Positions 54,393-64,000 are shown, counted from the stretch's first letter. The stretch: DNA of 64,000 nucleotides from an uncultured beta proteobacterium (GCA_963718025.1 CAVQXW010000004.1:249523-313522); one strand, 5' to 3'. Notes: generated from the sequence alone by a model not told the origin. Made by a program: numbers and translations.

Positions 54393-55594
54393 CGTGCTGT
54401 TCCAAAACTCAGCCGAACGTACGTGGGCTAATGCGATCTCGCTGCTACGGTTGACGTTGTGAAGATAAGTAGCCAACATTTATCTCGATGGCTGCCTCGA
54501 CAACTCTGCTGCAATTCCTGCTGATGGTGGTCGCCGGTTGGCTGCACAGGCAACAGGCGGCGACGATCGACTATCTGAAAGCGGAAAACCGCATGCTTCA
54601 CGCGCGCCTTGGTGGGAGGCGCATCGTCTTCACGGACGCCGAACGCCGGCAACTTGCCGAGAAGGCGAGGGCGCTTGGGCGCAAAGCGCTGCACGAGCTT
54701 GGCACGATCGTTACGCCCGACACATTGCTTCGCTGGCACCGCGAGCTGGTGGCACAGAAGTGGACGTTCGTTGAGAGACGCAGTCCCGGTCGGCCGCGCA
54801 TCCGTGCAGAGCTGGTTGCGCTGGTGCTGCGTATGGCAAAGGAGAATCGCGGCTGGGGCTACACGCGGATCCAGGGGGCGATGGCGAATCTCGGTCATAC
54901 GCTGGGCCGGGGGACCATTGGCCGGATTCTGAAAGATCACGGGATCGAGCCGGCCCCTGAGCGCGGTAAAGGAATGTCCTGGTCAGTGTTTTTGAAAGCA
55001 CACTGGAAGGTGTTGGCAGCGACCGACTTTTTCACGGTTGAGGTGTGGAGTTGGTCCGGGCTCGTCACCTACTACGTGCTGTTTGTCATGGAACTGGCGA
55101 CGCGGCGCATCTGTATTGCTGGTATCACGATACATCCGGACACCCACTGGATGTTGCAGATGGCAAGGCAGCTCACGGACGGAGTCGACGGAATTCTCCT
55201 CGACAAGCGATACATTATTTTGGACCGTGACACGAAGTACTGCCAAGCGTTCCGCGACTTCTTGAAGCGCGAGGGCATCGCAGTGATTCGGCTGCCACCG
55301 CGATCTCCGAATCTCAATGCGCACGCGGAAAGATGGGTGCGCGGGATCCGCGATGAATGCCTATCGAGGCTGATCCCGATTGGGCAGGGAATGCTGCGCC
55401 GTGCCCTTCGAGAATACGGTGCGCATTTTCATCGAGAGCGCAATCACCAAGGCCTCGGCAATGTGCTGATCATGCCGGACACCTCCTCCCAACAGCGAGG
55501 AGCACCGGTTATTCGTCGTGCTCGACTTGGAGGATTGCTCAATTACTATGAGCGAGCGGCTGCATAGCATTCGGCAGAGTTTTGGAACATCACG
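54393..55594 (+). mobile_element. IS-like element with rve/integrase-core transposase (IS481/IS3-like)
   Basis: IRs CGTGcTGTTCCAAAACTCaGCCGAA (54393-54417) and 55570-55594, 2 mismatches; no target duplication seen. Confidence 0.75.
54488..55567 (+). CDS. integrase core domain (rve) transposase
   Basis: WGYTRIQG HTH, ATDFFTV, LDRDTKY, NAHAERWV, YHRERNHQG-like motif. Confidence 0.88.
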   Translation: MAASTTLLQFLLMVVAGWLHRQQAATIDYLKAENRMLHARLGGRRIVFTDAERRQLAEKARALGRKALHELGTIVTPDTLLRWHRELVAQKWTFVERRSPGRPRIRAELVALVLRMAKENRGWGYTRIQGAMANLGHTLGRGTIGRILKDHGIEPAPERGKGMSWSVFLKAHWKVLAATDFFTVEVWSWSGLVTYYVLFVMELATRRICIAGITIHPDTHWMLQMARQLTDGVDGILLDKRYIILDRDTKYCQAFRDFLKREGIAVIRLPPRSPNLNAHAERWVRGIRDECLSRLIPIGQGMLRRALREYGAHFHRERNHQGLGNVLIMPDTSSQQRGAPVIRRARLGGLLNYYERAAA

Positions 55595-56958: not shown

Positions 56959-57003
56959 TCCCCGCCGAGGCAGCCGTTCCGCGCGCGTCCCCGCACCGGC
57001 CTT

Positions 57004-57081
57004 CGGCTGCCACGGGCCGCGCGCGCTGCCACATGCAGTGAAGGACCAGGACGGCGTCTTCCGTTCCTGGCGCGAGTAATC
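57004..57081 (+). repeat. degenerate tandem copy of the cytochrome gene 3' end
   Basis: GAAGGACCAGGAC..CGTCTTC..TCCTGGCGCGAGTAATC matches 56892-56960. Confidence 0.8.
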
Positions 57082-57361
57082 GGCGAGCACCTCGTGGTGC
57101 ACGTCCGATCGGTGCCGGGCGGCCCACATCAGGGGTATTCGCTTGCACCTGTCTTAGCCTGATCGAATATACGCGGAGGACAACTCACGGAATTGCTCGA
57201 TCGCACCGGCCTTGGATTGGTTTCCATCGACCACCATCGATGGATGATCGATCCAACCTGCCCCTATTCAGCCTCCTATAGCATTGGAAGAGACTGCCGC
57301 TTGCGCGGCGCTGGAATTGCAGGTTCAATAGCGCGGCCCCGCATTGCAAGGGCTCTTCAAC

Positions 57362-58030
57362 ATGGCCACGAAGACGATCGCTGCCGAACCATTCCCGCTT
57401 GCCTTCGACCCAGGGACGTCGGCGCTGGTCATGATCGACATGCAACGGGACTTCGTTGAGCCGAAGGGCTTCGGCGAATTGCTGGGCAACGACGTATCCA
57501 TGGTTCGGACCGCGATCGGGCCCTGCAGGGCTGTCCTCGCGGCCGCCCGCAGGTCCGGAATGCTGGTGCTCCATACGCGCGAAGGTCATCGCCCCGACCT
57601 GTCGGACTGCCCGCCGGCCAAGCTCACGCGCGGTGGTAAGACTTTCATCGGAACCGAGGGCCCGATGGGTCGCATTCTCGTGCGTGGCGAGAAGGGACAC
57701 GACATCATTCCCGAACTCTATCCGATCGCCGGCGAACCGGTGATCGACAAACCCGGCAAGGGTGCGTTCTTTGCCACCGACCTCGAACTGATTCTGCGCG
57801 ATCGCGCGATCAGGACGCTGTTTGTTTGCGGAGTGACCACCGAGGTCTGCGTCAATACGACCGTGCGCGAGGCCAACGACCGCGGCTTCGAGTGCGTCGT
57901 GCTCGAGGATTGCGTGGGCTCGTACTTCCCCGAATTCCAGGACTACGCGCTGCGAATGATCAAGGCCCAGGGCGCTATTTTCGGCTGGGTCTCGAATTCG
58001 AAAAACGCCATCGCCGCCATAGAGTCCTGA
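57362..58030 (+). CDS. isochorismatase-superfamily amidohydrolase, triuret/biuret hydrolase (TrtA/BiuH) group
   Basis: IDMQRDF (Asp), DKPGKGAF (Lys), TEVCV (Cys), AQGAIFG. Confidence 0.85.
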   Translation: MATKTIAAEPFPLAFDPGTSALVMIDMQRDFVEPKGFGELLGNDVSMVRTAIGPCRAVLAAARRSGMLVLHTREGHRPDLSDCPPAKLTRGGKTFIGTEGPMGRILVRGEKGHDIIPELYPIAGEPVIDKPGKGAFFATDLELILRDRAIRTLFVCGVTTEVCVNTTVREANDRGFECVVLEDCVGSYFPEFQDYALRMIKAQGAIFGWVSNSKNAIAAIES

Positions 58031-58863
58031 TGCACGTAGCGGTGGTCGCGTCCGCCGGCCCGCTTGCCCGCATCGACGGGGTTCGTGGCGTGGTGCACGC
58101 AGTGTTCCCGGGTTCGGTCCTCGTCGCGAGGTCCGACGGACCCCTGCTGGTCGTCCACGGTCCAGGCCACGGCCATACACCCACCTCGCTGATCGTCGAA
58201 GGCGCGCGCCGTGGTCAATGGGGTACGGCGCCGGGCGATGTCGTGACAGGCGGACTCGGCCACCTGCGGTTCGGAAGCACGCTGCTTGATGGCCGCCAGG
58301 CCCGGGTCTGGCGGCCGCGCCGGGCGGTCCGCTGCGGCGCCGTTGCGGCGGCCGAGGCGCTCCCCGCGATCGTCCACACGGTCCCTGTTGACGCATTGGC
58401 GAGGCTCGATTCGGATTGCCGACGACTCGCCACTGCGCTAGCCATCGACGACGTCCCTGCGGTCTGCGCGTGCACGCGCGCCCTCGTCGGCAACGGGCCG
58501 GGGCTCACGCCGTCTGGAGACGACGCGATCGTGGGGCTGCTCGCCGTCCTGCATCGGGCCGGCCCGATAGAGCTCTGTGCGCGCCCGCTGCGCCTTATCG
58601 GTAACATCCTGGACGCTTTGCTGTGCCGCACGACTTCCGTCGGCGCGCACTACCTGCGCCTGGCGATCGATGGCCACTTCGGCGAGCATCTCACCGACCT
58701 TGTCGACGCGTTGGGCTCCGAGGGCGGTGCAAGCCCCGAGCGCGTGGCCCGGGTGCGCGCCACCGGCGCCACGTCGGGCGCCGACGCGCTCGTCGGTGTG
58801 GTCGCCGGTCTGCGCCTGCTGCGCGACCTCTCGTCAACCCCTCGGCGCAAGGACAAGGCATGA
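58030..58863 (+). CDS. DUF2877 family (YlbF/AllH-like) protein
   Basis: GNGPGLTPSGDDAIVG, GATSGAD; TGATG coupling to the hydrolase gene. Confidence 0.88.
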   Translation: MHVAVVASAGPLARIDGVRGVVHAVFPGSVLVARSDGPLLVVHGPGHGHTPTSLIVEGARRGQWGTAPGDVVTGGLGHLRFGSTLLDGRQARVWRPRRAVRCGAVAAAEALPAIVHTVPVDALARLDSDCRRLATALAIDDVPAVCACTRALVGNGPGLTPSGDDAIVGLLAVLHRAGPIELCARPLRLIGNILDALLCRTTSVGAHYLRLAIDGHFGEHLTDLVDALGSEGGASPERVARVRATGATSGADALVGVVAGLRLLRDLSSTPRRKDKA

Positions 58864-60419
58864 CGGCCAGGCACCGCATCGTGGCCAACCTCTACAAGGA
58901 TTCCGTCGCGCTGATGGCGATATCGTCGAAGCTGCTCGCGCTGGAAGGACTCGATGGCGCCTCCGTCGTGATGGCGACGCCGACCAACCTCCAGAACCTG
59001 GTCGCGGCCGGCCTCGGCGAGGACCTAGCCGCCACCAAGCCTTCCGACCTCGTCGTCGCCGTCGCCGGCACCGATACCGCATGCGACGCAGCGCTTGCCC
59101 TGGCCGAAGAATTGCTCGCCGAGCAACTTCCGGGCGACGGCGGTAGCGTGGCGGAACAGCCGCCATCCAGCCTGCAGATGGCGGCCACCCGAGACCCGGG
59201 GGTGAACTTCGCGCTGGTGTCCGTTCCCGGCACCTACGCCGCGGCCGAGGCCCTGAAGGCGCTGCGCCTAGGCATGAGCGTCATGGTATTCAGCGACAAC
59301 GTACCGCAGGACCAGGAACTTGCCATCAAGCAGTATGCGGCCCAGCACGGATTGATGGTGATGGGCCCCGACTGCGGCACGGCGATCGTGAACGGACTTC
59401 CGTTGGGCTTCGCGAATGTCGTGCGGCGCGGCCCGATAGGCGTCGTTGGCGCGTCGGGAACGGGCATGCAGGAGGTCACGAGCCGGATTCACAACTTGGG
59501 GTCCGGTATCTCGCAGGCGCTCGGCACCGGCGGCCACGACCTCAGCGAGGCCATCGGTGGCATCTCGATGCTTGCAGGACTGCGGGCGCTCGAACGCGAT
59601 TCCGAGACCAAGGTCATCGTCCTCGTCTCCAAGCCGCCGGCGCCCGCCGTGGCGCGGCGCGTGCTCGATCAAGCCCGGGCGATGACGACGCCGCTGGTCG
59701 TGGTCTTCCTCGGGGCCGATCCGGCCTCGTTCAGCGACGATGTCGTTTGCGGTGCGACTACCCTGGCCGGCGCCGCCGACATGGCAGTGGCACTGGCCTC
59801 CGGGCGGCGCCCCGAACCGGAAGAGTCCGGCATCGCTCCGACGGTCCGCGGCCGGCTCGACGACGCCGCCAGACGCATGGCACCGGACCAACGATTCATC
59901 CGCGGTGTTTTCTGCGGTGGCACGTTTTGCTTCGAGGCGCAGTTCATCTGCCAGGCCGAGGGCCTCCGTGCGTGGTCCAACACGCCCGTGGCGGGCAATC
60001 CGGCGCTGGACGACATCCGCGTGAGCAGGGAGCACACCATCGTCGACATGGGCGACGACGCGTTCACGCAGGGCCGCCCCCACCCGATGATCGACCCGTC
60101 GCAGCGCAACGAGCGCATCGAACGCGATGCAGCGGATCCCGCGACCGCCGTGGTGCTCGTCGACGTGGTACTCGGCTACGGATCGGCGGCCGACCCGACA
60201 TCGCGCCTGATCGAGGTTCTCGACCACGCTCGCAGTTCGGCCAAGAACGCGGGGCGCTACCTCGCCGTGATCGCCCATGTTTGTGGTACCGACGCCGATC
60301 CGCAGAACCGCAAGGACACGATCGCCAAGCTGCACGGCGTCGGTGCGCTGGTTGCATCCAGCAATACCGAGGCGGCCACCTGGGCATCTTATCTCGCCAC
60401 CCGGCTGGCAGCGCGCTGA
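58860..60419 (+). CDS. fdrA: FdrA family acyl-CoA synthetase-like protein (AllF-like)
   Basis: YKDSVALM, MGPDCGT, GASGTGMQE, GTGGHDL, GRPHPMIDP. Confidence 0.92.
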   Translation: MTARHRIVANLYKDSVALMAISSKLLALEGLDGASVVMATPTNLQNLVAAGLGEDLAATKPSDLVVAVAGTDTACDAALALAEELLAEQLPGDGGSVAEQPPSSLQMAATRDPGVNFALVSVPGTYAAAEALKALRLGMSVMVFSDNVPQDQELAIKQYAAQHGLMVMGPDCGTAIVNGLPLGFANVVRRGPIGVVGASGTGMQEVTSRIHNLGSGISQALGTGGHDLSEAIGGISMLAGLRALERDSETKVIVLVSKPPAPAVARRVLDQARAMTTPLVVVFLGADPASFSDDVVCGATTLAGAADMAVALASGRRPEPEESGIAPTVRGRLDDAARRMAPDQRFIRGVFCGGTFCFEAQFICQAEGLRAWSNTPVAGNPALDDIRVSREHTIVDMGDDAFTQGRPHPMIDPSQRNERIERDAADPATAVVLVDVVLGYGSAADPTSRLIEVLDHARSSAKNAGRYLAVIAHVCGTDADPQNRKDTIAKLHGVGALVASSNTEAATWASYLATRLAAR

Positions 60420-60429
60420 AGGAGCACCC

Positions 60430-61854
60430 ATGCACGAGCTGTTCACCCGGGAGCTCCGCATCGTCAACGTCGGCCTGTCGAGCTTTGCCGAGAACGTCGT
60501 CAATGCCGGCGGCCACGCCGTCCAGCTGGCGTGGCGCCCGCCCGCGGGCGGGGACGTCGACTCCGGGTGGACGCTCGCGCGATTGATCACCGATCCGCTC
60601 GTCGAGAGCGCCAATCGCACCGCTTTCGCGCGCTACCTCGAGGCCCAGCCCGTCCTGGTCGACGTCGTGCTCGCGCGAGAAGCCGCGCCCGCCCTGAACG
60701 GCGAGCGCCGGATCCTTCACGCCGGTCCGCCGATCGCATGGGCCGACATGTGCGGCCCGGTCAAGGGTGCGATCGCCGGGGCCATCGTGTACGAGGGCTG
60801 GGCCGCGTCATCCGAAGAGGCGATGGACCTCGCCGCGGCTGGCAAGGTCGCGATGGGGCCAGCGCACGATCATGGCGCTGTGGGGCCGATGGCGGGCATC
60901 ATCAGTCCGTCGATGCCCGTGTGGTTGGTGGAGAACACCTCCGCCGGCAATCGGGCGTTCTGCAATTTCAACGAGGGGCTCGGCAAGGTGCTGCGCTTTG
61001 GCGCCAATGGTCCGGCGGTGATCGAGCGCCTGCAGTGGATGGGCACCGAGCTCTACGAGGTGATGCGCGCCGCGGTGCGCCGTCTCGGCCGCCTGGAACT
61101 CAAGCCGCTGATCGCCCAGGCCCTGCACATGGGTGACGAAGTGCACAACCGCAATGCCGCTGCGACGGGGCTGCTGCTCAAGCGCCTGCTGCCGGCGCTG
61201 CTCGCAACCGATGCGGCGAACGACCGGCTGCGCAGGGTGATCGAATTCGTGGCCGGCAATGATCACTTCTTCCTCAACTTGTCGATGGCGAGCTGCAAAG
61301 CCATGCTCGACGCCGCCGCCGGGGTGCCCGGCAGCTCGATGGTGACCGTGATGGCCCGCAACGGCGTGAACTTCGGCATCCAGCTCAGCGGCACCGGGCA
61401 CCAGTGGTTCCAGGCGCCGGCCAATCCGGTCGACGGCCTGTTCTTCCCCGGCTATGGCGTCAAGGATGCCGCAGCCGACCTCGGCGACAGCGCGATCACC
61501 GAAACCGCCGGACTTGGCGGGTTCGCAATGGCAGCAGCCCCCGCCATCGTGCAGTTCGTCGGCGGCACGCCGGCCGATGCCACCGAGAACAGCCGCCGGA
61601 TGCGCACGATCACCGTCGGCACCAACGCGGCTTTTACGCTGCCCGCGCTCAACTTCGGACCGACGGCGGCAGGCATCGACGCCAGACTGGTGCTCGACTC
61701 GGGTGTGCTGCCGATCATCAACACCGGCATTGCGCATCGCGATGCCGGTGTCGGCCAGATCGGCGCGGGTGTCACGACGGCCCCGATGGACTGCTTCATC
61801 GGCGCCATCGACGCGCTGGGTGCTGCCATGCCGGCGACAGAGGTGCGCCGGTGA
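60430..61854 (+). CDS. DUF1116 family (YlbE/AllG-like) protein
   Basis: HAGPP, GPMAG, NEGLGKVLRFG, GDEVHNRN, DLGDSAITET, INTGIAH. Confidence 0.9.
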   Translation: MHELFTRELRIVNVGLSSFAENVVNAGGHAVQLAWRPPAGGDVDSGWTLARLITDPLVESANRTAFARYLEAQPVLVDVVLAREAAPALNGERRILHAGPPIAWADMCGPVKGAIAGAIVYEGWAASSEEAMDLAAAGKVAMGPAHDHGAVGPMAGIISPSMPVWLVENTSAGNRAFCNFNEGLGKVLRFGANGPAVIERLQWMGTELYEVMRAAVRRLGRLELKPLIAQALHMGDEVHNRNAAATGLLLKRLLPALLATDAANDRLRRVIEFVAGNDHFFLNLSMASCKAMLDAAAGVPGSSMVTVMARNGVNFGIQLSGTGHQWFQAPANPVDGLFFPGYGVKDAAADLGDSAITETAGLGGFAMAAAPAIVQFVGGTPADATENSRRMRTITVGTNAAFTLPALNFGPTAAGIDARLVLDSGVLPIINTGIAHRDAGVGQIGAGVTTAPMDCFIGAIDALGAAMPATEVRR

Positions 61855-62795
61855 GCGGGCTCGCCGTGGTCGCCCTCGGTGGAAATGCGCTTGTGCGCGA
61901 CGCGCAGCACCAGTCGATTGCCGACCAGTACGAGACCGTGCAGTCGGTCGCGCCGTATCTTGTCGACTTGGTGGACGAGGGCTGGAACCTCGTCGTCACC
62001 CACGGCAACGGACCGCAGGTCGGATTCATCATGCGCCGCTCGGAGCTGGCCATCGCCGAAGTCGCCCCCGTACCGCTGGACTACGTGGTCGGCGACACGC
62101 AGGGCGCGATCGGTTATATGTTCCTCAAGGCGCTCGGTAACGAGTTACGCCGCCGCGGTCGCGACCGGCAGGTCGTGGCGGTGGTGACGCAGACTGTGGT
62201 CGCTGCGGACGACCCAGCATTCGCCCATCCGGCCAAGCCCGTTGGCGCGTTCATGGACGAAGCCGTGGCGCGTCGCTTCAAGGCCGAACTTGGCTGGACC
62301 ATCACCGAGGATGCAGGGCGCGGCTGGCGGCGCACGGTGGCGTCGCCGCTGCCGCGGGAGATCGTCGAGCTGCCGACGATCGCCGCGCTTTGCCGCCAGG
62401 GCACGATCGTCGTCGCCGTCGGCGGCGGCGGGGTGCCGGTCGTGCGCGCGGCCGACGGCAGCCTGGTCGGTGTCGAGGCGGTGGTCGACAAGGACCTCGC
62501 CTCGGCGCTGCTGGCGGCGCAGCTCGGCGCCGACCTGCTGGTCATTCCGACAGGCGTCGACAAGGTGGCTCTGAACTTCGGCCAGCCCAACCAACGCTGG
62601 CTCGACTCGCTCACGGTCGTCGAAGCCCGGGCCATGGCCGAGGCGGGCCAGTTCGGCGAAGGCAGCATGCGTCCGAAGGTCGACGCGGTGGCGAGCTTCG
62701 TCGCGCGCCGACCCGGCGGCGCCGGGGTCATCACCTCGCCCGAGAAGCTGCGCGATGCGCTGCGGCGGCAAACCGGCACGTGGATCGAAGGCTGA
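61851..62795 (+). CDS. arcC: carbamate kinase
   Basis: ALGGNAL, THGNGPQVG, EAVVDKD, GSMRPKV; GTG start overlapping the upstream stop. Confidence 0.93.
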   Translation: MSGLAVVALGGNALVRDAQHQSIADQYETVQSVAPYLVDLVDEGWNLVVTHGNGPQVGFIMRRSELAIAEVAPVPLDYVVGDTQGAIGYMFLKALGNELRRRGRDRQVVAVVTQTVVAADDPAFAHPAKPVGAFMDEAVARRFKAELGWTITEDAGRGWRRTVASPLPREIVELPTIAALCRQGTIVVAVGGGGVPVVRAADGSLVGVEAVVDKDLASALLAAQLGADLLVIPTGVDKVALNFGQPNQRWLDSLTVVEARAMAEAGQFGEGSMRPKVDAVASFVARRPGGAGVITSPEKLRDALRRQTGTWIEG

Positions 62796-62815
62796 CTTCC
62801 GCGCTGGGAGAAGAC

Positions 62816-63214
62816 ATGGAGAACACCTTGCTCGCCGTCAACGGCACGCTGATGCGCGGCCTCGAACTCAATCCCAACATGCTTGCCGTCGGTGCGACGT
62901 TCGTGCGCGAGGATCACACCGACGCGTGTTACCGGATCTGGACGATCGGCGATCGCCACCCGGCCATGCTGCGCACGCCGGGCGAAGGCGCGCGCGTGGC
63001 GCTGGAGCTGTGGTCGGTCCCCTCTGCAGGGCTCGCGACCATACTGCAGAACGAGCCGCTGGGATTGTCGATTGGCAAGGTCGTGCTCGCGGACGGGTCG
63101 ATCGTCCTCGGCGTTCTGGGCGAGCCCTTCCTGTGCCGGAATCAGCGCGAGATCACCGAGTTCGGCGGCTGGCGCGCCTACATTGCCGCGAAATCGAATG
63201 CCGCCGGCGCTTGA
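62816..63214 (+). CDS. stand-alone allophanate hydrolase C-terminal (GGCT-like) domain protein
   Basis: LAVNGTLMRGLELN, ELW, EPLGLSIGKVVLADG, EITEFGGWRAY. Confidence 0.8.
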   Translation: MENTLLAVNGTLMRGLELNPNMLAVGATFVREDHTDACYRIWTIGDRHPAMLRTPGEGARVALELWSVPSAGLATILQNEPLGLSIGKVVLADGSIVLGVLGEPFLCRNQREITEFGGWRAYIAAKSNAAGA

Positions 63215-63340
63215 CGGGCCCCGGCCGATTGCGCAACTGCATGACCGGTTCCGCCTCGGCAACGGCAGCGCAGGCGGCGCCGGAGTGGTTAGCTGGGCGA
63301 TGAGGTTCAGGTTCGCAACCCAACCAACGAGGAGATTCTC

Positions 63341-64000
63341 ATGAATGGTGCCACCAACGCTGGTGCGCCGCGGCTCTGGGTGCCGGGCGACTGGAATGGC
63401 TTCTTCGGCCTGTTCACGAACGTGCTGCTCAACGTGATCGTGCTCACCGGCCTGTGCCTGGGGGTCGTTCAGATCCCGGCCGACACGGTCTTCGGCCGCA
63501 TCCTGCCGGCCCTTGGCATCGCGCTGCCCCTTGGCAACCTGTTCTACGCCTATCTCGCTTGGCAACTGAGCAAGGCCGAGGGTCGCAGCGATGTCACCGC
63601 GATGCCGTACGGGCCCAGCGTGCCGCACATGTTCATCGTCGTCTTCCTGGTCATGTTGCCGACCTACCTGACGACGAAGGACCCGATGCTGGCCTGGAAG
63701 GCGGGGCTCGCCTGGTGCTTCATCATCGGAGTCATCGTGCTGCTCGGCGCATTCGTCGGACCGGCCATCCGGGCCGTGACGCCCCGCGCCGCCATGTTGG
63801 GCACGCTGGCCGGAATATCGATCGCCTTCATATCGATGCGGCCAGCATTCCAGATGTGGGAGACGCCGTGGATCGGGCTGGTCTGCTTCGCGATCGTGCT
63901 CATCGCCTGGACCGCCAACCTGCGCATGCCGGGTGGTCTGCCGGGCGGTCTGGCCGCGGTGATCGTCGGCTCGGTGATCGGCTGGGTCGTCTCGCTGATC
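63341..64000 (+). CDS. xanthine/uracil/vitamin C permease-like transporter (3' partial)
   Basis: open frame from ATG 63341: WVPGDWNGFFGLFTNVLLN...TAMPYGPSVPHMF...AMLGTLAGI; runs off the window. Confidence 0.8.
   Translation, partial: MNGATNAGAPRLWVPGDWNGFFGLFTNVLLNVIVLTGLCLGVVQIPADTVFGRILPALGIALPLGNLFYAYLAWQLSKAEGRSDVTAMPYGPSVPHMFIVVFLVMLPTYLTTKDPMLAWKAGLAWCFIIGVIVLLGAFVGPAIRAVTPRAAMLGTLAGISIAFISMRPAFQMWETPWIGLVCFAIVLIAWTANLRMPGGLPGGLAAVIVGSVIGWVVSLI

What the first reader, a model, noticed from the sequence alone, without database searches (positions are those of the whole stretch)
57362..64000. TrtA-like hydrolase in one operon with an AllFGH-like carbamoyltransferase and carbamate kinase
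Seen: coupled genes hydrolase-DUF2877-fdrA-DUF1116-carbamate kinase-AtzF-C-like-permease. Established (recalled): E. coli FdrA/YlbE/YlbF act as oxamate carbamoyltransferase yielding carbamoyl phosphate, which carbamate kinase converts to ATP. The hydrolase motifs GFGxxLGNDV and SYFP look closer to triuret hydrolase TrtA than to BiuH (GYVDxMG, ATD). No allantoinase or allantoate genes are in the window. Inference: a possibly undescribed ATP-yielding route for triuret, biuret or a related purine-oxidation ureide.
Basis: partly seen in the sequence, partly recalled or inferred. Interest (0 to 1): 0.76.

Follow-up and report, generated by a model that had tools for sequence, protein, structure and literature searches.

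The report
Triuret-type ureide-to-ATP gene cassette
This is a real, tightly coupled seven-gene operon, found shuffled but intact in many bacterial phyla and in about 29% of complete E. coli genomes, that most likely imports a triuret-like urea-condensation or urate-oxidation compound and breaks it down to ammonia while making ATP through carbamoyl phosphate; nobody has tested this biochemically.

Summary
Window 57362-64000 holds a TrtA-like cysteine hydrolase, AllH, AllF/FdrA, AllG, carbamate kinase, a stand-alone allophanate-hydrolase C domain (AH_C) and a nucleobase-type permease, mostly with overlapping stop and start codons.

- **Hydrolase:** It has the TrtA state at every catalytic and specificity position checked. 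In the tree it lies beside, not inside, the characterised TrtA clade.
- **Complex:** The three-subunit complex is a paralogue of E. coli AllFGH, not its orthologue. About 29% of complete E. coli genomes carry this cassette.
- **Neighbourhoods:** Of 55 well-flanked related loci, 51 have a TrtA-side hydrolase, 49 have AH_C (alone or within a full allophanate hydrolase), 53 have carbamate kinase, and none has allantoin genes.
- **Feeder swap:** Three loci without the hydrolase carry cyanuric acid hydrolase instead. Both enzymes make 1-carboxybiuret.
- **Own genome:** It has no BiuH, no allophanate hydrolase and no urease motif.

Best reading: triuret is hydrolysed to carboxybiuret, whose carbamoyl units are transferred to phosphate and then yield ATP. 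This rests on homology and gene context only. The co-location has been published, but read differently. I class it as a new variant of a known kind.

The parts
56959..57361 (+). Upstream intergenic region, presumed promoter region of the operon
   Evidence: 403 nt lie between the cytochrome P460 gene and the hydrolase. The sigma-70 consensus scan found no promoter-like site. No cassette-type LysR or GntR regulator is adjacent or elsewhere in the genome; the best LysR match is 33% identical and distant.
57362..58030 (+). TrtA-like isochorismatase-family cysteine hydrolase (222 aa)
   Evidence: PF00857 at 150 bits. Best PDB match is triuret hydrolase 6xix at 261 bits. Asp-Lys-Cys triad, the cis-peptide Val-Thr pair, and F35/N41/A134/E160/Y187/Q202/I205 are all in the TrtA state. 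The BiuH equivalog score of 270 is below its 370 cut-off. Homologues are 75-91% identical across phyla.
58030..58863 (+). AllH-like subunit (DUF2877)
   Evidence: PF11392 at 76 bits. A profile built from cassette AllH sequences scores 222 bits. The start overlaps the hydrolase stop as TGATG.
58860..60419 (+). AllF/FdrA-like subunit (CoA-binding and CoA-ligase domains)
   Evidence: NF004760 at 488 bits, above the 433 cut-off; also PF00549 and PF02629. Identity is 55% to the E. coli island paralogue, 42% to YahF and 41% to AllF. ATGA overlap with AllH.
60430..61854 (+). AllG-like subunit (DUF1116)
   Evidence: PF06545 at 316 bits. Identity is 70% to the E. coli island paralogue, 46% to YahG and 45% to AllG. 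Its N-terminal ~45 residues match the C-terminal tail of E. coli AllF.
61851..62795 (+). Carbamate kinase
   Evidence: NF009007 at 363 bits, above the 266 cut-off; TIGR00746 at 347 bits. GTGA overlap with AllG.
62816..63214 (+). Stand-alone allophanate-hydrolase C-terminal domain protein (AH_C, GGCT-like fold, 132 aa)
   Evidence: PF21986 at 128 bits, with no amidase domain. It scores 159 bits against PDB 5c5z. 5c5z is the E. coli island protein, matching at 119 of 121 residues.
63341..64000 (+). Nucleobase-type (AzgA/AGZA-like) permease, 515 aa; continues 888 nt beyond the window end
   Evidence: The full ORF is L002:6864-8411. It has no Pfam, NCBIfam or PDB match. JGI names its homologues AGZA-family xanthine/uracil permease. 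The same permease type occurs in 17 of 55 related cassettes; an NCS1 permease occurs in 19.

Best explanation
The operon is a self-contained uptake and catabolism cassette for triuret or a very similar planar acyl-ureide. It yields ammonia, CO2 and ATP.

**Proposed steps**
1. The permease imports the compound. This is inferred.
2. The TrtA-like cysteine hydrolase removes the terminal amide nitrogen and gives 1-carboxybiuret. This rests on strong homology.
3. The AllH-AllF-AllG complex is a paralogue of oxamate carbamoyltransferase. It transfers the terminal carbamoyl group of 1-carboxybiuret, and possibly of the resulting allophanate, to phosphate. This is inferred from gene context only.
4. 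Carbamate kinase converts carbamoyl phosphate plus ADP into ATP and carbamate. This rests on homology.
5. The stand-alone AH_C domain does what the C domain of allophanate hydrolase does. As I recall it, that is decarboxylation of an N-carboxylated leftover such as N-carboxycarbamate. The exact substrate here is unknown.
For: **Hydrolase**
- It is 60% identical to crystallised TrtA.
- All catalytic, substrate-contacting and TrtA/BiuH-discriminating residues named in PMC7948467 are in the TrtA state in 58-59 of 59 cassette hydrolases. A134 is in that state in 46 of 59.
- It lies on the TrtA side of the TrtA/BiuH split.

**Cassette conservation**
- Of 55 loci with at least 4.5 kb on both sides of AllG: 53 have AllF, 53 have carbamate kinase, 51 have a TrtA-side hydrolase and 49 have AH_C. 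None has allA-E or allW.
- At least six different gene orders occur. The loci span Pseudomonadota, Actinomycetota, Nitrospirota, Chloroflexota and Spirochaetota.

**Alternating partners**
- Stand-alone AH_C and full-length Amidase+AH_C allophanate hydrolase substitute for each other.
- Three loci without the hydrolase (L043, L070, L076) carry cyanuric acid hydrolase PF09663 next to AllF-AllG. TrtA and AtzD both produce 1-carboxybiuret (PMC7948467).
- Nitrospira locus L066 has BiuH, TrtA, AllHFG, carbamate kinase and stand-alone AH_C in one operon, with no amidase.

**Own genome**
- It has no BiuH, no allophanate hydrolase above the cut-off and no urease signature. The canonical hydrolytic triuret route cannot run there.

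**Paralogy and regulation**
- 1557 of 5426 complete E. coli genomes hold the cassette. Listed carriers hold three matching places, and K-12 carries separate allFGH-allK and yahEFG-yahI clusters. This argues for a different substrate.
- The cassette LysR is nearest to PunR and AllS, which are purine-linked regulators.
Against: - No enzyme of this cassette has been assayed.
- The only characterised relative of the complex uses oxalurate.
- The hydrolase is outside the 99%-supported clade that holds Herbaspirillum TrtA. It differs from that clade at about 12 conserved positions, for example H113 where TrtA has N112.
- Locus L079 has a true TrtA and a cassette-type hydrolase side by side. This suggests they may not be redundant.
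- The scheme gives AH_C no obligatory role when no amidase domain is present.
- The three AtzD-type loci lack AH_C. That fits poorly if AH_C acts downstream of carboxybiuret.
- Loci with full-length AtzF would hydrolyse allophanate rather than phosphorolyse it.
- 1-Carboxybiuret is unstable, with a half-life of about 20 min (PMC7948467).
Confidence: 0.5

Rival explanations
1. Same architecture, different imported compound. The hydrolase deamidates another planar acyl-ureide, for example oxaluramide, formylbiuret, or a ring-opened triazine or urate-oxidation product. The complex then acts on oxalurate or another carboxylated ureide rather than on carboxybiuret.
For: - The hydrolase forms its own short-branched group outside the TrtA clade and has group-specific residues.
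- It co-occurs with a true TrtA in L079.
- The two alternative permeases are nucleobase-type, NCS1 and AzgA-like.
- The regulator is AllS/PunR-like.
- TrtA itself shows trace activity on formylurea.
Against: - All 15 TrtA active-site and second-shell residues are kept.
- Replacement of the hydrolase by cyanuric acid hydrolase in three loci points to carboxybiuret as the shared intermediate.
- BiuH, TrtA and AtzF, not oxalurate-forming enzymes, are the recurrent neighbours.
Confidence: 0.2
2. Two independent functions that merely sit together. One is a triuret/biuret hydrolytic module. The other is a genuine oxalurate-specific oxamate carbamoyltransferase with carbamate kinase, as read in PMC12625717.
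For: - The only biochemical precedent for AllFGH is oxalurate (PMC11326118).
- Some loci have a complete hydrolytic set of TrtA, BiuH and AtzF beside AllFGH and carbamate kinase.
Against: - In this genome the hydrolytic route is incomplete: no BiuH, no AtzF and no urease motif. The hydrolase product would be a dead end.
- No oxalurate-producing genes occur in 55 of 55 loci.
- The genes are translationally coupled.
- The association survives extensive gene-order shuffling and transfer between phyla.
- E. coli carriers would then hold two oxalurate systems.
Confidence: 0.15
3. A pyrimidine (Rut-like) nitrogen-scavenging island. A RutB-like hydrolase and a cytosine-type permease would feed carbamate metabolism, as speculated for region GR29 of avian pathogenic E. 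coli in PMC12928451.
For: - The hydrolase has distant similarity to RutB: 113 bits against TIGR03614, and about 110 bits against RutB structures.
- The NCS1 permease is annotated as cytosine permease.
Against: - The hydrolase is far closer to TrtA and BiuH (261 and 239 bits) than to RutB.
- No rutA, rutC, rutD, rutE or rutF partners were seen among the recurrent neighbour clusters of the loci. No rut queries were run against them.
- The NCS1 permease scores 146-154 bits against a cut-off of 326 for cytosine permease.
Confidence: 0.04

Closest known systems
E. coli AllF-AllG-AllH oxamate (oxamic) carbamoyltransferase with AllK carbamate kinase (PMC11326118, PMC9843812)
   Same: - The same three protein families (FdrA, DUF1116, DUF2877) lie next to a catabolic carbamate kinase.
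- The expected chemistry is the same: phosphorolysis of an N-acyl-urea to carbamoyl phosphate, then ATP.
   Different: - Identity is only 41%, 45% and 39%, so this is a paralogue.
- E. coli carriers of this cassette show three matching places, and K-12 has separate allFGH-allK and yahEFG-yahI clusters.
- No allantoin or ureidoglycolate genes are nearby.
- The cassette carries a TrtA-like hydrolase, AH_C and its own permease.
- A ~45-residue segment sits on AllG here but on AllF in E. coli.
Triuret/biuret pathway TrtA-BiuH-AtzF of Herbaspirillum sp. BH-1 and Rhizobium leguminosarum (PMC7948467)
   Same: - The first enzyme is a TrtA-side isochorismatase-like cysteine hydrolase with identical active-site and specificity residues.
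- An allophanate-hydrolase C domain is present.
   Different: - No BiuH and no amidase domain exist anywhere in this genome.
- A carbamoyltransferase plus carbamate kinase sits in their place.
- The hydrolase lies outside the characterised TrtA clade.
Accessory island of extraintestinal E. coli (GR29 of strain BEN2908, PMC12928451; PDB 5c5z)
   Same: - It is the same cassette: cysteine hydrolase, DUF2877, fdrA, DUF1116, arcC, allophanate hydrolase-related protein, permease and LysR.
- Identity to this operon is 77% (hydrolase), 33% (AllH), 55% (AllF), 70% (AllG), 63% (carbamate kinase) and 64% (AH_C).
   Different: - It uses an NCS1 permease and an adjacent LysR regulator.
- This operon has an AzgA-like permease and no adjacent regulator.
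- The island's function is also untested.
trtA-biuH-(atzF)-allFGHK clusters of comammox Nitrospira and biuH-allFGHK of ammonia-oxidising archaea (PMC12625717)
   Same: - The AllG clade is the same, at 61-64% identity.
- Carbamate kinase and AH_C or AtzF are present, linked to triuret/biuret hydrolases.
   Different: - Those clusters carry a true TrtA-clade enzyme plus BiuH and an ABC transporter.
- The authors read them as separate biuret and oxalurate pathways.
E. coli K-12 yahE-yahF-yahG-yahI-yahJ cluster
   Same: It is another paralogous DUF2877, FdrA-like, DUF1116 and carbamate kinase set with its own hydrolase and unknown substrate.
   Different: - Its partner hydrolase is a metal-dependent amidohydrolase (YahJ), not an isochorismatase-like enzyme.
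- It has no AH_C.
- Identity to this operon is 27-48%.

Membership tests
TrtA (triuret hydrolase, isochorismatase-like hydrolase family) | Asp-Lys-Cys catalytic triad and the cis-peptide Val-Thr pair | tested here: met
   D26, K130, C163 and V158-T159 align with TrtA D24, K129, C162 and V157-T158.
TrtA (triuret hydrolase, isochorismatase-like hydrolase family) | Residues that separate TrtA from BiuH (F35, N41, A134, E160, Y187, I205; shared Q202, E72, K132, F29) | tested here: met
   All are in the TrtA state in the window protein. They are in that state in 58-59 of 59 cassette hydrolases, with A134 in 46 of 59. BiuH has Y, Y, S, D, T and V at the six discriminating positions.
TrtA (triuret hydrolase, isochorismatase-like hydrolase family) | Placement inside the clade of the characterised enzyme | tested here: not met
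   Herbaspirillum TrtA, the Nitrospira enzymes and L079_4773 form a clade with 99% support. The window protein lies in a short-branched sister group or grade, joined to that clade at 88% support and separate from BiuH.
TrtA (triuret hydrolase, isochorismatase-like hydrolase family) | Operon context with biuH and atzF | tested here: not met
   The own genome has no BiuH paralogue and no allophanate hydrolase above the cut-off.
TrtA (triuret hydrolase, isochorismatase-like hydrolase family) | Specific hydrolysis of triuret to 1-carboxybiuret | not testable with these tools
   This needs an enzyme assay.
BiuH (biuret amidohydrolase) | Score above the NCBIfam equivalog cut-off, and BiuH-state specificity residues | tested here: not met
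   NF050097 scores 270 bits against a cut-off of 370. None of the six discriminating residues is in the BiuH state.
AllFGH oxamate carbamoyltransferase | Three subunits of the FdrA, DUF1116 and DUF2877 families encoded together, with an adjacent catabolic carbamate kinase | tested here: met
   Searches show the families. One search shows the overlapping genes.
AllFGH oxamate carbamoyltransferase | Orthology to the characterised E. coli enzyme | tested here: not met
   Identity to AllF, AllG and AllH is 41%, 45% and 39%. Identity to the separate E. coli island paralogue is 55%, 70% and 33%. E. coli genomes listed as carrying the cassette show three matching places.
AllFGH oxamate carbamoyltransferase | Context with oxalurate-forming allantoin genes (allB, allC, allE, allD) | tested here: not met
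   None occurs in the window or in 55 of 55 related loci.
AllFGH oxamate carbamoyltransferase | [quoted passage not shown] | not testable with these tools
   This needs reconstitution of the complex.
Allophanate hydrolase (AtzF/AH) | Amidase-signature N domain fused to the AH_C domain | tested here: not met
   The 132-aa protein has only PF21986 and matches positions 440-563 of TIGR02713. Full-length forms occur in other cassettes.
Catabolic carbamate kinase | Score above the curated family cut-off | tested here: met
   NF009007 scores 363 bits against a cut-off of 266.

The most novel reading that the evidence does not exclude
The AllH-AllF-AllG clade of this cassette is not an oxalurate enzyme. 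It is a 1-carboxybiuret (and perhaps allophanate):phosphate carbamoyltransferase. Breakdown of triuret, and of cyanuric acid in the AtzD-bearing variants, would then conserve energy by substrate-level phosphorylation, with up to two ATP per molecule. The stand-alone AH_C would finish off the N-carboxylated remainder. This would be a third fate of carboxybiuret, beside decarboxylation (TrtB or spontaneous) and deamidation (AtzEG).
Probability: 0.35. Interest if true: 0.8.

Novelty: new variant of a known kind. Interest (0 to 1): 0.62.

Why it matters
- **A new branch of nitrogen catabolism.** If the reading is right, a widespread and mobile cassette turns polyurets into ATP as well as ammonia. 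Polyurets are urea-fertiliser impurities and peroxynitrite-type oxidation products of uric acid.
- **A second substrate for a new enzyme type.** It would give the recently identified three-subunit carbamoyltransferase family a second substrate.
- **A function for a solved structure.** It would assign a function to PDB 5c5z, which is deposited as 'Glutamyl-tRNA amidotransferase'.
- **An explanation for where the island is found.** It would explain why the island is common in extraintestinal and avian E. coli, in Avibacterium, and in soil, sediment and nitrifier genomes.
- **Easy to test.** The cassette exists in culturable, genetically tractable bacteria.

Tried and rejected
- **Promoter and terminator scans.** Scans around the operon gave no promoter-like site and no convincing terminator.
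- **Transcript evidence.** The search for sequencing runs found only DNA metagenomes from freshwater sediments and no RNA, so expression could not be checked.
- **Possible AllH-AtzD fusion in L076.** A 300-residue extension in front of AtzD is an ORF-calling artefact. It has no AllH similarity, and the real start is near residue 305.
- **Random census.** An evenly drawn sample of 401 genomes of the class was too sparse, with AllG in only 7. Its 9 extra AllG places showed that the family has several other sub-clades with other partners. Only one of the nine was this cassette.
- **AH C-domain paper.** The paper on its function (Fan et al. 2013, PMC3774409) is not held. The decarboxylase role is cited from memory.
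- **Literature.** Searches found no paper that assays this cassette.
- **Urease.** Absence rests only on a motif search for GGGHAPD and MVCHHL, not on a profile search.
- **BiuH membership.** I considered and rejected it, on score and on residues.

Full report
**Observation**

ORF listing and family searches confirm a co-directional seven-gene block on the + strand.
- Isochorismatase-family hydrolase, 57362-58030.
- AllH/DUF2877, 58030-58863.
- AllF/FdrA, 58860-60419.
- AllG/DUF1116, 60430-61854.
- Carbamate kinase, 61851-62795.
- A 132-aa protein that consists only of the allophanate-hydrolase C-terminal domain (AH_C), 62816-63214.
- A permease starting at 63341.

The whole genome is held. 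The window is G000:C4:249523-313522. The permease runs 888 nt past the window end (515 aa), and the operon stops there. A convergent lipoprotein gene and a TonB-like gene follow.

The junctions are TGATG, ATGA and GTGA overlaps, or short gaps with Shine-Dalgarno-like sequences. G+C rises from about 0.62 to about 0.70 at the start of the operon. IS-type integrase genes lie on both sides. This suggests acquisition by transfer.

**The hydrolase**

Against solved structures, the best match is the triuret hydrolase TrtA of Herbaspirillum (6xix, 261 bits, about 60% identity). Biuret hydrolases follow at 239 and 233 bits, and RutB at about 110 bits. The NCBIfam BiuH equivalog model scores 270 bits, below its 370 cut-off.

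The TrtA paper names the catalytic triad (D24, K129, C162), the substrate contacts (E72, K132, Q202, F29) and six positions that differ by consensus between TrtA and BiuH (F35, N41, A134, E160, Y187, I205). In an alignment of 59 cassette-type hydrolases, 8 TrtA-clade sequences and 11 BiuH sequences, I found the following.
- The window protein has the TrtA state at every one of these positions.
- So do 58-59 of the 59 cassette hydrolases; for A134 the figure is 46 of 59.
- BiuH differs at all six discriminating positions.

In a maximum-likelihood tree rooted on RutB, BiuH is a separate clade. Characterised TrtA, the Nitrospira enzymes and one betaproteobacterial enzyme form a clade with 99% support on a long branch. 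The cassette type is a short-branched sister group or grade, joined to that clade with 88% support. About a dozen positions are conserved in the cassette type but differ from the TrtA clade, for example H113 against N112.

Strict membership of the characterised TrtA clade is not shown.

**The carbamoyltransferase**

E. coli AllFGH is oxamate carbamoyltransferase. It works with the carbamate kinase AllK (PMC11326118).

Identity of the window's subunits (AllF, AllG, AllH) to three E. coli systems:

| E. coli system | AllF | AllG | AllH |
|---|---|---|---|
| AllFGH (K-12) | 41% | 45% | 39% |
| YahFGE (K-12) | 42% | 46% | 27% |
| Accessory island | 55% | 70% | 33% |

- The island is present in 1557 of 5426 complete E. 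coli genomes.
- In strain MS 69-1 it reads: cysteine hydrolase, DUF2877, fdrA, DUF1116, arcC, 'allophanate hydrolase-related protein', cytosine permease, LysR. That is the same cassette.
- Listed carriers hold three matching places in one genome. K-12 itself has separate allFGH-allK and yahEFG-yahI clusters. Such strains therefore probably carry three paralogous systems, which argues that they differ in substrate or role.
- PDB entry 5c5z is deposited as 'Glutamyl-tRNA amidotransferase'. It is the island's AH_C protein, matching at 119 of 121 residues.
- A 2026 genome paper lists the island as region GR29 of an avian pathogenic strain and guesses at pyrimidine nitrogen scavenging.

**Conservation of the cassette**

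The hydrolase has 75-91% identical homologues in Caballeronia, Dyella, Silvimonas, Enterobacteriaceae, Avibacterium, Vibrio, Photobacterium and Acidimicrobiales. Look-ups in Avibacterium, Vibrio sinensis and an enterobacterium show the same gene set.

A scan of one genome per species with an AllG alignment returned 80 loci with AllG at least 61% identical. I annotated them with the cassette proteins, reference TrtA and BiuH, and the E. coli allantoin genes, and clustered all their ORFs. Counts among the 55 loci with at least 4.5 kb on both sides of AllG:

| Feature within 10 kb of AllG | Loci (of 55) |
|---|---|
| AllF | 53 |
| Carbamate kinase | 53 |
| TrtA-side hydrolase | 51 (45 cassette type, 6 TrtA clade) |
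| AH_C | 49 |
| Permease | 36 (19 NCS1, 17 of the window's type) |
| allA, allB, allC, allD, allE or allW | 0 |

Gene order varies widely.
- Hydrolase first.
- Permease-AH_C-hydrolase first.
- Hydrolase last.
- A divergent allophanate hydrolase.
- AllH on the opposite strand.

The hosts span five phyla. Persistence through such shuffling argues for a functional unit.

**Three alternations that point to the chemistry**

1. *AH_C or full allophanate hydrolase.* Where stand-alone AH_C is missing, a full-length Amidase+AH_C allophanate hydrolase often sits divergently next to the hydrolase (L054, L059, L063, L067, L072, L078, L082, L085). The small protein therefore supplies the C-domain function.
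2. *True TrtA with BiuH.* In Nitrospira, AllH-AllF-AllG-carbamate kinase lies in one operon with an ABC transporter, a true BiuH, a TrtA-clade enzyme and either stand-alone AH_C or AtzF. Locus L066 has no amidase at all.
3. *Cyanuric acid hydrolase in place of the hydrolase.* A note from an earlier report in this scan prompted me to examine the loci that lack any TrtA-side hydrolase. L070 and L076, and also L043, carry a cyanuric acid ring-opening amidohydrolase next to AllF-AllG (PF09663, 543 and 458 bits for L070 and L076; L043 was found by tblastn at 60% identity to the L070 enzyme). TrtA and cyanuric acid hydrolase make the same product, 1-carboxybiuret. The two alternative feeder enzymes converge on one compound.

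**The own genome**

- tblastn finds no BiuH paralogue and no second AH_C.
- The allophanate hydrolase model finds only three generic amidases, at 151-252 bits against a 511 cut-off.
- The invariant urease alpha motifs are absent.
- E. coli allA, allE and allW have no match. allB, allC and allD have only 30-34% relatives elsewhere.

The canonical route runs triuret, biuret, allophanate, ammonia. It cannot operate here, and nothing nearby makes oxalurate. If the hydrolase makes carboxybiuret, the rest of the operon must consume it.

**Mechanism proposed**

1. Import by the nucleobase-type permease. JGI labels its homologues AGZA family; it has no Pfam, NCBIfam or PDB match.
2. Deamidation of triuret to 1-carboxybiuret by the hydrolase. 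This rests on homology.
3. Transfer of the terminal carbamoyl group of carboxybiuret to phosphate by AllH-AllF-AllG, giving allophanate and carbamoyl phosphate. A second round on allophanate is possible. This rests on context, and on the analogy of oxalurate with carboxybiuret and allophanate as carboxylated N-acyl-ureas.
4. ATP formation by carbamate kinase. This rests on homology.
5. Decarboxylation of an N-carboxylated remainder by AH_C. I recall this role for the C domain from Fan et al. 2013, a paper that is not held.

The weak points are listed below.
- AH_C has no obligatory role when no amidase is present.
- AH_C is absent from the three AtzD-type loci.
- A true TrtA and a cassette-type hydrolase occur together in L079.
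- Biochemistry is entirely lacking.

I put the whole scheme at about 0.5 and the specific carboxybiuret/allophanate phosphorolysis at about 0.35.

**Rivals**

- *A different acyl-ureide substrate* (0.2). It fits the separate hydrolase group and the purine-type regulator: the island LysR is nearest to PunR and AllS.
- *Two unrelated pathways side by side* (0.15). This is the published reading for nitrifiers. It fits poorly with the incomplete hydrolytic route here, the translational coupling and the AtzD swap.
- *Pyrimidine scavenging* (0.04). The hydrolase's much closer kinship to TrtA than to RutB argues against it.

**Novelty**

Every component family is known. The co-location of trtA/biuH with allFGHK was reported in 2025 (PMC12625717), and the E. 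coli island was described in 2026 (PMC12928451).

What is not in the literature I could search:
- any assay of the cassette;
- the idea that the complex uses a triuret- or cyanurate-derived intermediate;
- the hydrolase/AtzD and AH_C/AtzF alternations.

I class the finding as a new variant of a known kind. This operon is an ordinary member of a widespread but uncharacterised cassette.

Earlier reports of this scan on other genomes reached similar readings. I treated them as leads only. I tested the AtzD claim and the ExPEC-island claim myself.

Noticed in passing
G000:C4:331597-345383 (outside the window, 18-31 kb downstream of the operon): A second carbamate kinase, 46% identical to the operon's, ends a minus-strand cluster. 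By their N-terminal sequences and weak tblastn hits, the cluster's ORFs look like E. coli ygeW (carbamoyltransferase), ygeY, a hydantoinase/dihydropyrimidinase, ssnA and a molybdenum xanthine-dehydrogenase-type protein. That would be the anaerobic purine-degradation type of cluster.
   Followed up: partly
window 60430-60570 (AllG N-terminus): The first ~45 residues of AllG match the C-terminal tail of E. coli AllF (residues 513-554, 38% identity; FdrA profile positions 508-545). E. coli AllG is about 55 residues shorter. A segment has therefore moved between neighbouring subunits, which fits a physical complex.
   Followed up: partly
window 63341-64000 and L002:6864-8411: The 515-aa permease has no Pfam, NCBIfam or PDB match. 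It is nevertheless 84-93% identical to more than a hundred metagenome protein clusters, which JGI labels AGZA-family nucleobase permease. It alternates with an NCS1 permease in the cassette.
   Followed up: partly
L009-L013, L018, L022, L045, L058 (Actinomycetota loci): In mycobacterial and other actinobacterial cassettes the hydrolase gene abuts AllF directly. No AllH is detected by BLAST or by a profile built from 50 AllH sequences. AllH may be dispensable, replaced or encoded elsewhere.
   Followed up: no
window 56959-57361 and whole genome: Most other cassettes have an adjacent LysR (PunR/AllS-like) or GntR regulator. This operon has none. The genome's best matches are only 30-33% identical and distant. 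The neighbours are an unrelated MarR and cytochrome P460 pair.
   Followed up: partly
window 54488-55567 and L002:16375-16980; composition across 57000-59000: Integrase-core (rve) transposase genes lie on both sides of the operon. G+C jumps from about 0.62 to about 0.70 at its start. Both fit a horizontally acquired island beside the arsenite-oxidase locus.
   Followed up: no
L024 (contig labelled Chryseobacterium sp. 18061): This cassette and its hydrolase cluster tightly with Buttiauxella and Serratia sequences. The contig is probably enterobacterial contamination or a very recent transfer.
   Followed up: no
L091-L093 (G099, G132, G304): Another AllG sub-clade (48-51% identical) sits next to an AllC-like M20 amidohydrolase, AllF and a YahI-like carbamate kinase. 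The carbamoyltransferase family therefore has further uncharacterised cassettes with other partner hydrolases.
   Followed up: no
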